IMG/VR virus record: IMGVR_UViG_2791354774_000003
Source of the DNA: a virus
Taxonomy: Duplodnaviria; Caudoviricetes
Reading direction: 5' to 3' (one strand)
DNA: 64,000 bases
This document shows positions 30,054 to 31,853 of the stretch, one piece after another (within the stretch, counting starts at the first letter, position 1; each line of letters begins with the position of its first letter). The translations under genes and the position numbers were made by a program. The notes under the pieces are model-generated. The model was not told the origin of the DNA, ran no database searches, and was given only the letters and a program-made list of their open reading frames with translations.

Positions 30054-30107
30054 GACGAGGGCGGCACCTCTCGGCTGGGGCGCGCTGATACATCGGCCGC
30101 CCTCGCC
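30054..30107 (-). ncRNA. TIGR-like guide unit U6
   Basis: GGCGAGGGCGG-CCG-ATGTATCAG-CG-CGCC-CCA-GCCGAGAGG-TG-CCGCCCTCGTC. Confidence 0.8.
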
Positions 30108-30131
30108 TCACCGCCGAGGCGGTGTCTGCGA

Positions 30132-31112
30132 TTAGTGGGTGAGAGCGGCGCCTGCCATTTGGGTGCCGTCCATCAGATGGCCACCCTCACCCTTCCTCCA
30201 TTGGGACCAGAGGTCCCGGAGAAATCGCTTCTCGACGTAGCGCTGCGCCCGATTGTGCGCGTGCGCCTTGGTCTCGACCCGTTCGGCCTCGTAGACCTTC
30301 CGTGCGTCGTAAATTACCTTGAGCGGCCCGCCAGCCTTCACGATGCAGGCACCGAGGTTCCACATCACCGAGCGCCGAGCCGGGCTGTACCCGTGGTCAA
30401 GCGCCTCGACACCACCGACACGCCGCTGCCGGCCGCCATCAGGCATCACGGCCAGCCCCATGCGCTTCCATAGTTTGGCGGGATTGCCGTAGGAGCCGAG
30501 ATCCCCAGCCTCGCCGACGATGGCCGCCAGAGACAGCAAGCCGACGCCGCGTGTGGCCTCAACCCACGGCGCGACGGGTAGCCCCTTCGCCAAGGCCACT
30601 AGCCGCTTCTCAACAGCCCTGCGGTGGCGCTCGACACCATCTCGGGCTTCGGTCAGAGGAAACATTGCAGCCAGGGCAACCTCACCCATGGGATGAGAGC
30701 CTTTGCCGATGGCGGCACCGTAGATCTTGTCCGCTTCCTTTTTGTCGCCGCCCTCAGCGAGGCGACGGCACAGGGCCTTTGCCTGCAAGGTCAACGACTT
30801 CTCGGCGCGGTGCCACGCCTGCCGGCGCCGCCATTGTTCACGGACCTCTGCAATAAGGTCGGCGAGGTCGGCAGGGGGTAGTTGGATAACGCGTCTGCCA
30901 TGGCCGGCCTCGCCTTCGCCGGCCTCACGGTCGGCGATCTCGGTATCATGGGCGACGAGGCTGGCAGTGGTTGTATGGGTGCCACGAAGGCACTGGCCAG
31001 CCTCGTCATCGGCGTTACCGCCGATTGGGTAAAGGGGTGCGGTGGGCGACGCATCGTGATGGGGTGGCAGATGTTCAACGGTCGCCCGACCGCGCCGGGA
31101 CGTGCCCGGCAT
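30132..31112 (-). CDS. TasA-like Nop/IS110-Tnp-domain RNA-binding protein without a nuclease domain
   Basis: Coiled coil, then RGVGLLSLAAIVGEAGD...PAKLWKRMGL...YDARKVYE...HAHNRAQRYVEKRFLRDLW; no DEDD/RuvC or HNH; ATG at 31112 with GGAG RBS (start uncertain). Confidence 0.8.
   Translation of the reverse strand: MPGTSRRGRATVEHLPPHHDASPTAPLYPIGGNADDEAGQCLRGTHTTTASLVAHDTEIADREAGEGEAGHGRRVIQLPPADLADLIAEVREQWRRRQAWHRAEKSLTLQAKALCRRLAEGGDKKEADKIYGAAIGKGSHPMGEVALAAMFPLTEARDGVERHRRAVEKRLVALAKGLPVAPWVEATRGVGLLSLAAIVGEAGDLGSYGNPAKLWKRMGLAVMPDGGRQRRVGGVEALDHGYSPARRSVMWNLGACIVKAGGPLKVIYDARKVYEAERVETKAHAHNRAQRYVEKRFLRDLWSQWRKGEGGHLMDGTQMAGAALTH
30137..30192 (-). ncRNA. TIGR-like guide unit U5 (inside the 3' end of the Tas ORF)
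   Basis: GGGTGAGGGTGG-CCA-TCTGATGGA-CG-GCAC-CCA-AATGGCAGG-CG-CCGCTCTCACCC. Confidence 0.8.
30861..30914 (-). ncRNA. TIGR-like guide unit U4
   Basis: GGCGAGGCCGG-CCA-TGGCAGACG-CG-TTAT-CCA-ACTACCCCC-TG-CCGACCTCGCC. Confidence 0.8.
30954..31007 (-). ncRNA. TIGR-like guide unit U3
   Basis: GACGAGGCTGG-CCA-GTGCCTTCG-TG-GCAC-CCA-TACAACCAC-TG-CCAGCCTCGTC (perfect 11-bp stem). Confidence 0.85.
31039..31093 (-). ncRNA. TIGR-like guide unit U2 (variant second box CCC)
   Basis: GCGGTCGGGCGA-CCG-TTGAACATC-TG-CCAC-CCC-ATCACGATG-CG-TCGCCCACCGC. Confidence 0.7.
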
Positions 31113-31119
31113 CTCTGAA

Positions 31120-31644
31120 TTACTCCGCGAGGCCACGTGCCGCCTCCTGCAATTCGCGCAGGCGCCGATCGGTGAGCACATCGCCAGCCGTCTTGTCGCC
31201 CGGCACAGACTGAGCCACGAGGCGCAGCCAGCGCGCCTTGACCCCCATATCCGTTGCCTGCGCATCGTAGAACTGCGCGGCCTCTGCAATCTCCTCTCGG
31301 GTCGCCTCACCGAGCTTCTTGCCGCCGGGGAGCGGGAACATGAGGAGCGTGCCAGCCGCGAGTTGCACCACGCGGTGCGAACCGTTCGTGCGGTTGGCGA
31401 CCAGCTTCTCGGCCGGCGGGGTCCACACCTTCCGGCGCTCGACGCGGCACTGTGCGGTCACGGCGGCGTAGCAAGCGGTCGAGAGAAGTGGGTCGGTCAG
31501 ATCGTCTCGCAGACGACGGTTGTTGCGCACGGACTGCTCCAGGGCGCGGGTCGCCTCACGCACATCGCCGTTCGCGGCTTCCAAAGCGGCACGAGCCGCC
31601 TCGGCAACGAGATCTCTTTCCTTGGGCTTTGCTGAAGCGGCCAT
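31120..31644 (-). CDS. Helical hypothetical protein directly upstream of the Tas gene
   Basis: RBS GGAGA; 174 aa; lies between U1 and U2. Confidence 0.75.
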   Translation of the reverse strand: MAASAKPKERDLVAEAARAALEAANGDVREATRALEQSVRNNRRLRDDLTDPLLSTACYAAVTAQCRVERRKVWTPPAEKLVANRTNGSHRVVQLAAGTLLMFPLPGGKKLGEATREEIAEAAQFYDAQATDMGVKARWLRLVAQSVPGDKTAGDVLTDRRLRELQEAARGLAE

Positions 31645-31775
31645 GTCGGGTCTCCACGGGCGCCGGCCCGCCAGGGCCTGAAGCGCGTACAGGTGGTCGG
31701 AAGCGACCGCCGGCACCCGTGAAGTCGGGGAACTCGGGATCGCGCTTGATACCGCCCTGGCGGGGCGGGATAGGT

Positions 31776-31829
31776 GCAGACGACGACAGAACGGTATTGG
31801 GCGGCACTGCCGATACGGTCGTCGTCCGC
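31776..31829 (-). ncRNA. TIGR-like guide unit U1
   Basis: GCGGACGACGA-CCG-TATCGGCAG-TG-CCGC-CCA-ATACCGTTC-TG-TCGTCGTCTGC. Confidence 0.85.
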
Positions 31830-31853
31830 TTCCGTCTTCCGACGGATCTGCGA

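What the first reader, a model, noticed from the sequence alone, without database searches (positions are those of the whole stretch)
30054..31846. Guides are dispersed two-hairpin modules with sequence-variable stems, not a tandem repeat array
Seen: the closing stems differ in sequence but all base-pair (with some G:U pairs, one mismatch and one bulge). Five of six units have a short hairpin just upstream: TCCGTC-GGAA-GACGGA (U1), GCCGGG-CACGT-CCCGGC (U2), ATCGGCG-GTAA-CGCCGAT (U3), TCGCCGACC-GTGA-GGCCGGCGA (U4), CACCGC-CTCG-GCGGTG (U6). Three of these loops are GNRA. Units occur as 1+3+2, separated by protein-coding sequence, so repeat finders would likely miss them. Inference: processing or loading is specified by structure, and the leader hairpin may be a processing or stability signal.
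Basis: partly seen in the sequence, partly recalled or inferred. Interest (0 to 1): 0.8.

Follow-up and report, generated by a model that had tools for sequence, protein, structure and literature searches.

The report
Prophage TIGR-TasA guides with leader hairpins
The six hairpin units are guide-RNA genes of a prophage TIGR-TasA system, a kind of RNA-guided DNA binder published in 2025-2026, and each carries a small extra hairpin in front that is conserved among relatives and may help cut out or protect the guide.

Summary
Observation confirmed. Six minus-strand units (30054-31846) each have a 10-12-pair closing stem (bulge or mismatch included) of different sequence around an identical 32-nt frame, CCR-N9-YG-N4-CCM-N9-YG. 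That is the published stem-loop tigRNA layout: box C, spacer, box D, twice. The adjacent protein (31112..30132, minus) is a nuclease-less Tas protein: its best PDB matches by sequence and by fold are TasR and TasH.

Variable stems, split sub-arrays and units inside the tas reading frame are already described (Faure 2025; Xu 2026 preprint). This scan has 71 notes on such systems in at least 55 other genomes.

The part I did not find in print is the leader hairpin. In 14 related loci, 30 of 45 units have a perfect hairpin ending 0-2 nt upstream of the unit stem. The rate is 5.7% at random positions and 1 of 45 downstream. Stem sequences differ (26 distinct), all six pairs covary, and 15 of 24 tetraloops are GNRA against 60 of 1248 in the background.

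Distant relatives mostly lack it (20 of 198). Its role in processing, end protection or folding insulation is inferred; no RNA data were available.

The parts
31854..32255 (-). Gene C (133 aa, unknown function). Its stop TAA (31856-31854) begins the linker motif TAATCGCAGA (31856-31847) in front of U1.
   Evidence: ORF list; sequence; no Pfam or PHROG hit.
31831..31846 (-). U1 leader hairpin: 6 bp, GGAA (GNRA) loop, 1 nt before the unit stem.
31776..31829 (-). U1 tigRNA unit: 11-bp stem (31829-31819 with 31786-31776) around the guide loop 31818-31787 (CCG-N9-TG-N4-CCA-N9-TG).
31120..31644 (-). Gene A (174 aa). Conserved unknown partner directly upstream of tasA. Its stop TAA (31122-31120) begins the linker TAATTCAGAGAT.
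   Evidence: tblastn finds it upstream of tasA in 35 of 78 fetched loci, duplicates included. No Pfam, PHROG or PDB fold match.
31094..31110 (-). U2 leader hairpin: 6 bp, 5-nt loop, 0 nt before the unit stem. Its first G is the G of the tasA ATG (31112-31110).
31039..31093 (-). U2 tigRNA unit: stem of 6+5 bp with a 1-nt bulge; guide loop 31081-31050.
31008..31025 (-). U3 leader hairpin: 7 bp in the minimum-energy fold, GUAA (GNRA) loop, abuts the unit stem.
30954..31007 (-). U3 tigRNA unit: 11-12-bp stem; guide loop 30996-30965.
30916..30937 (-). U4 leader hairpin: 6+2 bp around one A.C mismatch, GUGA (GNRA) loop, 1 nt before the unit stem.
30861..30914 (-). U4 tigRNA unit: 10 pairs around one C.A mismatch (11 positions); guide loop 30903-30872.
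30132..31112 (-). tasA ORF (326 aa). The folded Nop-type core is residues about 80-310 (about 30875-30183). Residues 1-76 and 311-326 are predicted disordered and are encoded by U2-U4 and U5.
30193..30224 (-). U5 leader hairpin, built from tasA codons (the ...FLRDLWSQWRK stretch): 13 pairs with an internal loop, abuts the unit stem.
   Evidence: The same place folds into a 10-14-pair hairpin in 7 of 9 relatives folded.
30137..30192 (-). U5 tigRNA unit: 12-bp stem with two G.U pairs; guide loop 30180-30149. It overlaps the last codons of tasA.
30109..30124 (-). U6 leader hairpin: 6 bp, CUCG loop, 1 nt before the unit stem. It is preceded by the linker TAATCGCAGA (30134-30125), whose TAA is the tasA stop.
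   Evidence: repeat D16.
30054..30107 (-). U6 tigRNA unit: 11-bp stem with one G.U pair; guide loop 30096-30065.

Best explanation
The stretch is a prophage-borne stem-loop TIGR-TasA system.

Shown here:
- Six guide-RNA genes lie on the tasA strand.
- Each is a module with four parts. First comes a G-poor, probably single-stranded linker (consensus about ACCCnnUUCnGAGA). Next is a short GC-rich leader hairpin, usually 6 bp and often GNRA-capped. After 0-2 nt comes a 10-12-pair closing stem of free sequence. The stem encloses a fixed frame: box C (CCR), 9-nt spacer A, box D (YG), 4 nt, box C (CCM), 9-nt spacer B, box D (YG).
- The protein is a nuclease-less Tas protein (TasA).

From the literature: TasA dimers bind such units through the box C/D motifs and the stem. 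The two spacers pair with opposite DNA strands, and TasA acts as an RNA-guided DNA binder or repressor.

Inferred:
- The closing stem is read as shape, not sequence.
- The leader hairpin is an RNA element selected in this alphaproteobacterial prophage clade.
- Most likely it punctuates the polycistronic transcript. It insulates neighbouring GC-rich units from mispairing and keeps the linker single-stranded for a host RNase. After cleavage it caps a new end: the 5' end of the guide if the cut falls in the linker, or the 3' end of the upstream mRNA or guide if the cut falls at the leader/unit junction.
For: Identity of the protein:
- Best PDB sequence match of the protein is TasR 9mty_A (E 1.2e-11, residues 159-307). 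9MTY is the TasR ribonucleoprotein deposited with the Science paper.
- The AF2 core (residues 80-310) has pLDDT above 90.
- Foldseek ranks TasR (E 3.5e-7) and TasH entries first, then the IS110 recombinases ISCro4 and IS621.
- No nuclease domain was found. There is no Pfam hit, and residues 1-76 are predicted disordered.

Identity of the units:
- All six units fit the published stem-loop tigRNA plan (PMC12045711 section 9).
- Across 78 related loci the same detector finds 261 distinct units. All but 13 lie on the tas strand.

Leader hairpin:
- In 14 loci whose TasA is at least 64% identical, 30 of 45 units have a perfect hairpin ending 0-2 nt upstream. The random rate is 5.7% and the downstream control is 1 of 45.
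- At 6 or more pairs the count is 24 of 45 against 2.2%.
- There are 26 distinct stem sequences among the 30 hairpins (all).
- On a covariance-model alignment of these loci, made without the window (71 rows), all 6 leader pairs show changes on both sides. 96.7% of cells pair, against 36-50% when partners are slid by 1-3 columns.
- 15 of 24 leader tetraloops are GNRA, against 60 of 1248 tetraloop hairpins on the same strand of the same loci. This is a strand-specific, RNA-level signal.
- The leader of the intragenic unit U5 recurs in 7 of 9 relatives despite lying in conserved codons.
- The 3' flank is G-depleted: 1-4 G among 50 units at each of positions +2 to +8.

Literature context: Xu 2026 (sections 11 and 13, read in full) report that stem-loop Tas proteins lack the processing loop, that maturation is unresolved, and that flanking sequence improves processing.
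Against: - There is no expression or end-mapping data. No RNA run holds this sequence, and the runs laid were contigs only.
- 15 of 45 close-clade units fail the strict hairpin test. Some have interrupted hairpins, but the relaxed test that would admit them has a 33% random rate and proves nothing.
- Most distant TasA relatives have no leader: 20 of 198 units against 5.0% random. It is therefore not needed for TasA function in general.
- The covariance model built on tetraloop leaders recovered only 4 of the 6 window units at E 0.01 or better; U2 and U5 were missed.
- The covariation counts come from an alignment fitted to the model, which leans towards the structure.
- G.U against A.C counts support a sense-strand RNA only in close-clade unit stems (20 against 6). 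Over all units the counts are 77 against 68. In the leaders there are 0 G.U and 1 A.C.
- The published CUU boundary motif is only weakly enriched: 13 of 51 units against 10.9% random, and 3 of 6 in the window.
- No DNA target was found in the host genome.
Confidence: 0.7

Rival explanations
1. The leader hairpins work on the messenger RNAs rather than on the guides. They would act as 3'-end stabilisers or translational controls. Three of them sit directly after the stop codons of gene C, gene A and tasA. The U2 leader starts at the G of the tasA start codon, so it could throttle tasA translation or couple it to guide excision.
For: - The stop codons of all three genes lie inside the linker motif TAAT(CG/T)CAGA, which directly precedes a leader (repeat D16).
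- The tasA ATG overlaps the U2 leader.
- The tasA frame stays open through the upstream units in 15 of 16 loci checked.
- Xu 2026 section 5 suggests a link between tigRNA maturation and Tas translation.
Against: - The U3 and U4 leaders follow guide units, not genes.
- The leader keeps a fixed 0-2 nt distance to the downstream unit stem, while its distance to the upstream stop codon or unit varies.
- The start codon is not at the hairpin edge in several relatives, for example L001, L009 and L010.
Confidence: 0.15
2. The leader hairpin stays in the mature guide. It is then a binding or docking element for TasA or for the conserved partner protein (gene A). For example, it could stack on the closing stem to form a roughly 18-20-bp helix, or dock through its GNRA loop.
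For: - The 0-2 nt gap would allow coaxial stacking.
- GNRA loops are enriched.
- Gene A is a constant neighbour.
- Published TasA proteins contact the extended stem (bioRxiv 10.64898/2026.08.11.744272, passages of section 5).
Against: - Gene A is also present in distant loci whose units have no leader, for example L054, L061 and L071.
- Loop sequences are not uniform: besides GNRA there are CUCG, UCCG and UGUGU.
- No binding was tested.
Confidence: 0.1
3. The small hairpins have no function of their own. They would be chance GC-rich palindromes, scars of how units are duplicated or replaced, or DNA-level features.
For: - The genome is 64% G+C.
- 5-6% of random positions pass the 5-pair hairpin test.
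- Distant clades do without leaders.
Against: - 30 of 45 against 5.7% random, with 1 of 45 on the downstream side of the same units.
- Compensatory changes at all six pairs.
- Strand-specific GNRA enrichment, 15 of 24 against 60 of 1248.
- The hairpin is kept even inside conserved codons.
Confidence: 0.04

Closest known systems
Stem-loop TIGR-TasA systems: PlTasA from a Peromyscus leucopus gut contig, Bifidobacterium longum BlTasA (Faure et al. 2025, PMC12045711; Xu et al. 2026, bioRxiv 10.64898/2026.09.09.750476; Guan et al. 2026, bioRxiv 10.64898/2026.08.11.744272)
   Same: - Nuclease-less Nop-fold Tas protein.
[quoted passage not shown]
- 9 nt between the spacers.
- Closing stems that are palindromic but variable in sequence.
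- Sub-arrays upstream, downstream and inside the tas reading frame, in parts of the protein predicted disordered.
- Phage context.
   Different: - In this clade each unit is preceded, at 0-2 nt, by a separate short hairpin that is often GNRA-capped and covaries. I found no such element in the passages and sections I read of the three papers. Their figures and supplements were not visible.
- The stem-base motif here reads ACC(C)nnUU, not a clean CUU.
- A conserved 174-aa partner gene sits upstream of tasA.
Dual-repeat TIGR arrays with TasR or TasH (TaTasR, PDB 9MTY; SpTasH)
   Same: - Same Nop-type RNA-binding core; these are the best sequence and fold matches.
- Same tandem-spacer guide plan with box C (CCA) and box D (UG).
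   Different: - Those arrays have conserved edge and loop repeats, yield 36-nt guides, and the proteins carry nuclease domains.
- Here the stems vary in sequence, no repeat family is detectable, and there is no nuclease domain.
IS110-family bridge-RNA recombinases (IS621, ISCro4)
   Same: - The C-terminal domain is related. It hits PHROG 'transposase' families (phrog_4285 E 4e-18, phrog_2199 E 0.0012), and some sources name relatives 'IS110 family transposase' or 'transposase'. The fold matches at Foldseek E 0.004-0.02.
- The guide RNAs have paired loops.
   Different: - No DEDD/RuvC domain is present.
- There are several short single-loop guides instead of one two-loop bridge RNA.
- The element sits as a fixed operon in a prophage tail region with a conserved neighbour gene.
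5'- or 3'-terminal stabiliser hairpins and hairpin-punctuated processing of bacterial polycistronic RNAs (for example the ompA 5' stem-loop, REP 3' stabilisers, RNase E sites next to stem-loops).
   Same: A small stable hairpin lies next to a single-stranded, G-poor segment at the boundaries of units that must be released from a longer transcript.
   Different: The link is by analogy only. No cleavage site, RNase dependence or half-life was measured.

Membership tests
Stem-loop TIGR-Tas (TasA type) | Tas protein with the Nop-type coiled-coil plus C-terminal RNA-binding fold | tested here: met
   phmmer against PDB: TasR 9mty_A, E 1.2e-11. Foldseek on the AF2 model: TasR E 3.5e-7 and TasH E 1.5e-5 ranked first.
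Stem-loop TIGR-Tas (TasA type) | No HNH or RuvC nuclease domain (this is what separates TasA from TasH and TasR) | tested here: met
   No Pfam domain at E up to 10 other than chance-level hits. Residues 1-76 have pLDDT below 50 with no secondary structure. Homologs align only from about residue 80.
Stem-loop TIGR-Tas (TasA type) | Guide units with two 8-12-nt spacers, each flanked by box C (CCA-like) and box D (UG-like) | tested here: met
   6 of 6 units read CCR-N9-YG-N4-CCM-N9-YG.
Stem-loop TIGR-Tas (TasA type) | Variable but consistently palindromic sequences closing each unit | tested here: met
   Stems of 10-12 pairs with six different sequences. In relatives, all 8 outer stem pairs show changes on both sides and 98.3% of cells pair.
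Stem-loop TIGR-Tas (TasA type) | Units clustered around or inside the tas gene, on its strand | tested here: met
   Window: 6 of 6 on the tasA strand within 0.75 kb of the ORF. Relatives: 261 distinct units detected, all but 13 on the tas strand.
Stem-loop TIGR-Tas (TasA type) | Units transcribed, processed to discrete RNAs and bound by the Tas protein | not testable with these tools
   No RNA holder is listed for this stretch. The runs laid were contigs only, which cannot show RNA ends.
Stem-loop TIGR-Tas (TasA type) | [quoted passage not shown] | tested here: inconclusive
   CTT lies within -2 to +10 of the 3' stem end in 13 of 51 close-clade units, against 10.9% at random positions. In the window it is 3 of 6. 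The flank consensus is ACCCnnUUC.
Stem-loop TIGR-Tas (TasA type) | Dual-spacer pairing to opposite strands of a DNA target | tested here: inconclusive
   No contiguous 18-nt target with 1 mismatch or fewer in the 5.94-Mb host genome. Allowing gaps of -4 to +12 gives 3 one-mismatch hits, about the chance number by my estimate. No match with 1 mismatch or fewer in the 78 loci; one 2-mismatch hit, in L051. Phage collections were not searched.
IS110 bridge-RNA recombinase | N-terminal DEDD (RuvC-like) catalytic domain | tested here: not met
   No such domain is present. The N-terminal 76 residues are disordered, variable in length and encoded by guide units.
Box C/D sRNP (Nop5 / L7Ae / fibrillarin) | K-turns bound by L7Ae and a methyltransferase partner | not tested
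   The archaeal box C/D RNP 3pla_A is only a weak fold match (E 0.31). K-turns and partner proteins were not examined.

The most novel reading that the evidence does not exclude
In this prophage clade, the G-poor linker plus the GNRA-capped leader hairpin is the self-contained maturation signal of stem-loop tigRNAs. It would replace the protein processing loop that stem-loop Tas proteins lack. A host RNase would cut at a position fixed by the hairpin. The hairpin would then cap and protect the new end. Because units sit after three stop codons and on the tasA start codon, the same cuts would set the levels of gene C, gene A and TasA, tying protein supply to guide production.
Probability: 0.25. 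Interest if true: 0.6.

Novelty: new variant of a known kind. Interest (0 to 1): 0.4.

Why it matters
How stem-loop tigRNAs are cut out of their transcripts is stated as unresolved in the newest work. These Tas proteins lack the catalytic loop of dual-repeat systems, and flanking sequence is reported to help in an unknown way (Xu 2026, sections 11 and 13).

A short element that covaries, is clade-specific and sits at a fixed distance from every guide is a concrete handle on that question. It can be deleted, disrupted and restored, and tested against RNase mutants. It also matters for anyone expressing such guides as tools.

Beyond that, the locus is an ordinary, well-formed member of a family that is already described. 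This scan has met the family in at least 55 other genomes.

Tried and rejected
- **Rfam.** Scans at gathering thresholds and at E up to 5 found no family in the stretch, only chance miRNA-like hits.
- **IS110 or integron readings.** My first idea was an IS110-like element with attC-like or REP-like hairpins. I dropped it once the TasR and TasH matches and the box C/D frame were seen.
- **Relaxed hairpin test.** Allowing an internal loop or bulge gave 37 of 44 close-clade units and 6 of 6 in the window. Its random rate is 31-33%, so I discarded it as uninformative.
- **MAFFT alignments of the modules (A2, A3).** These put tetraloop and pentaloop leaders in different registers, so column-wise pair counts were not possible on them. 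I used a covariance-model alignment instead.
- **G.U against A.C asymmetry as a strand test.** Informative only for close-clade unit stems.
- **Self-targets.** None beyond chance.
- **Expression.** No RNA holder is listed. The four runs laid are contigs of related strains that cover parts of the stretch and show nothing about RNA ends.
- **Gene A.** No Pfam, PHROG or PDB fold match.
- **Promoter and terminator scan.** One promoter-like site at 32628-32600 (minus strand) and no terminator-like site inside the stretch.
- **Literature.** Two full-text searches. I read passages of PMC12045711. I read sections 5, 7, 11 and 13 plus find-passages of 10.64898/2026.09.09.750476. I read passages of 10.64898/2026.08.11.744272. 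None mentions a hairpin in the linker ahead of a unit. Figures and supplements (for example fig. S12/S13 and Extended Data Figs 2 and 6) were not visible and may bear on this.
- **Earlier scan notes.** No note holds all of the words leader, hairpin, GNRA, tigRNA and linker.
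Full report
**What is there.**

All features lie on the minus strand of a 64% G+C window. Six units share one frame: CCR, 9 nt, YG, 4 nt, CCM, 9 nt, YG, 32 nt in all. Each frame is enclosed by a closing stem of 10-12 pairs.

The bare frame occurs 16 times in the window, against 7.5 expected. Only the six hits between 30065 and 31818 have flanking stems. Their contiguous pairs number 11, 6 (then a bulge and 5 more), 12, 3 (then a mismatch and 7 more), 12 and 11. The other ten hits have 0-3.

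The six stems all differ in sequence. The five quoted leader hairpins are in place, and three have GNRA loops.

RNAfold returns 'leader hairpin, then unit' as the minimum-energy fold for all six modules. It does the same for the whole U2-U4 stretch (z -6.0). The fold also shows a 13-pair hairpin ahead of U5, made of tasA codons. So six of six modules have a leader, not five of six.

**What the protein is.**

The ORF at 31112..30132 (326 aa) has no Pfam hit. It does match PHROG 'transposase' families. Its best solved relative by sequence is chain A of 9MTY (E 1.2e-11), which is the TIGR-TasR complex of Faure et al..

An AF2 model built on 24 homologs is confident for residues 80-310 and disordered for residues 1-76 and 311-326. 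Foldseek ranks TasR and TasH complexes first, then the IS110 recombinases, then weakly the box C/D proteins.

The disordered ends are exactly the parts encoded by U2-U4 and U5. Homologs align only from about residue 80 onwards. There is no nuclease domain, so the protein is a TasA.

The 218-aa version of this protein held in the public collection (P0013) starts inside the invariant block. No other canonical in-frame start lies between ATG 31112 and that point. In 15 of 16 relatives checked, the core frame stays open through the upstream units and back into the neighbouring gene.

**What the units are.**

The frame is the published stem-loop tigRNA plan. Two 8-12-nt spacers are each flanked by box C (CCA) and box D (UG). 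About 9 nt lie between the spacers. Variable but palindromic sequences stand in place of edge repeats (PMC12045711 section 9).

The 2026 preprint from the same group describes 2,559 stem-loop arrays. It reports stems that diverge within one array, variable linkers, and units upstream of, downstream of and inside the tas frame in disordered protein regions. It also reports a CUU motif at the stem base and an unresolved maturation mechanism.

The title claims of the finding (dispersed units, variable stems, missed by repeat finders) are therefore true here but already in print for the family. Within each group the modules are head to tail, with core spacings of 85, 93 and 84 nt.

**Relatives.**

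I fetched 78 loci encoding relatives: 5 from genomes, 46 from viral contigs and 27 from metagenomes. The named ones come from Methylobacterium, Microvirga, Lichenihabitans, Brevundimonas and a Caulobacterales bacterium.

The same detector finds 261 distinct units in them and the window. All but 13 are on the tas strand. One of the tas-strand hits (L007 at 4778) is a likely false positive, and I dropped it from later alignments.

**The leader hairpin.**

This is the part I did not find described. I used a strict test that needs no alignment: a perfect hairpin of at least 5 effective pairs, with a loop of 3-7 nt, ending 0-2 nt upstream of the unit stem. The table gives the counts.

| Set | Units passing | Random positions | Downstream control |
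|---|---|---|---|
| 14 close loci (TasA at least 64% identical, window excluded), 5+ pairs | 30 of 45 | 5.7% | 1 of 45 |
| Same loci, 6+ pairs | 24 of 45 | 2.2% | 1 of 45 |
| Window, 5+ pairs | 5 of 6 | 5.9% | 1 of 6 |
| Window, 6+ pairs | 4 of 6 | 2.1% | 0 of 6 |
| Distant relatives, 5+ pairs | 20 of 198 | 5.0% | 9 of 198 |

The 30 close-clade hairpins have 26 different stem sequences. Among distant relatives the leaders are concentrated in a few loci, such as L068 and L063. The leader is therefore a clade feature, not a family feature.

I built a covariance model from 13 modules, three of them from the window, and searched it over the 17 close loci without the window. On the resulting 71-row alignment, all six leader pairs show changes on both sides. 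96.7% of cells pair, against 36-50% when partners are slid by 1-3 columns. No shuffle reached the observed covariation score. That alignment is fitted to the model and so leans its way. The same model missed U2 and U5 in the window at E 0.01.

Loops give an independent, strand-specific signal. 15 of 24 leader tetraloops are GNRA, against 60 of 1248 tetraloop hairpins on the same strand of the same loci.

The leader of the unit inside the 3' end of tasA recurs as a 10-14-pair hairpin in 7 of 9 relatives folded, although it lies in conserved codons. L012 and L076 are unclear.

The flank after each unit reads about ACCCnnUUC and is almost free of G. Ahead of the leader the linker usually ends in GA or AGA. 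Three copies of the linker in the window carry the stop codons of gene C, gene A and tasA.

**How it most likely works.**

Shown here: the anatomy, the family assignment, and selection for the leader as an RNA structure.

From the literature: TasA dimers bind the box motifs and the stem. The spacers pair with opposite DNA strands. TasA represses transcription at its target.

Inferred: the whole operon may be read from the promoter-like site at 32628-32600. A host RNase would then cut in the G-poor linkers. The leader hairpin would keep neighbouring GC-rich units from mispairing, fix the place of the cut and protect the new end. The U2 leader starts on the tasA start codon, so guide excision and TasA synthesis may be coupled.

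Rival roles are listed with their tests: an mRNA stabiliser or translational control, a retained protein-binding arm, or no function.

**What did not work or speaks against.**

There are no RNA data and no DNA target in the host genome. CUU enrichment is weak. 15 of 45 close units fail the strict hairpin test, and most distant clades have no leader. Figures and supplements of the papers were not visible, so the leader may already be drawn there.

**Verdict.**

This is a clean new member of the published stem-loop TIGR-TasA kind. It carries a clade-specific addition to the guide module, a covarying and mostly GNRA-capped leader hairpin, that I did not find in print. That addition offers a handle on the open question of how these guides mature.

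Noticed in passing
window 31120-31644 (-); loci L001-L073: Gene A (174 aa, all-helical AF2 model, mean pLDDT 81) sits directly upstream of tasA. tblastn finds it there in 35 of the 78 fetched loci (duplicates included), at 30-84% identity, including loci whose units have no leader hairpin. It has no Pfam, PHROG or PDB fold match. It looks like a constant partner gene of unknown function, as earlier notes of this scan reported for other TasA prophages.
   Followed up: partly
window 31650-31677 and 31754-31781: A 28-nt inverted repeat (75% complementary). On the minus-strand RNA, the 3' side of the U1 stem and its flank could pair with the stretch holding the gene A ribosome-binding site (GGAGAC). 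This is a possible alternative fold linking U1 to gene A translation.
   Followed up: no
window 30132-31112 (-): The public protein collection holds this gene as a 218-aa product (P0013) that begins inside the invariant block of the family. The only canonical in-frame start upstream is ATG 31112, so the annotated start is probably too far downstream. In one relative (L020) the gene instead starts with ATG right at the core, so the unit-encoded N-terminal tail is dispensable there.
   Followed up: partly
window 29459-30051 (+): An HTH_3 (HigA-like) gene and a small DUF4926-like gene converge on the end of the tasA operon. The stop of the second gene lies 3 nt from the outer base of the U6 stem. 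The whole island lies between the tape-measure gene (35847-37763) and the Dit-like and baseplate genes (from 29046 downwards) of a prophage tail module.
   Followed up: no
window 30073, 30081, 30147: Contigs of related strains differ at three places. One is in spacer B of U6. One is in its 4-nt inner loop. One is in the U5 stem, where a G-C pair becomes G.U, so pairing is kept.
   Followed up: no
window 32600-32628 (-): The only sigma-70-like promoter match in 29800-33200 (TTGACA, 17 nt, CATATT; 10 of 12). It lies upstream of the gene at 32268-32582 (phrog_36439), so genes D, C, A, tasA and all six units may form one transcript.
   Followed up: no
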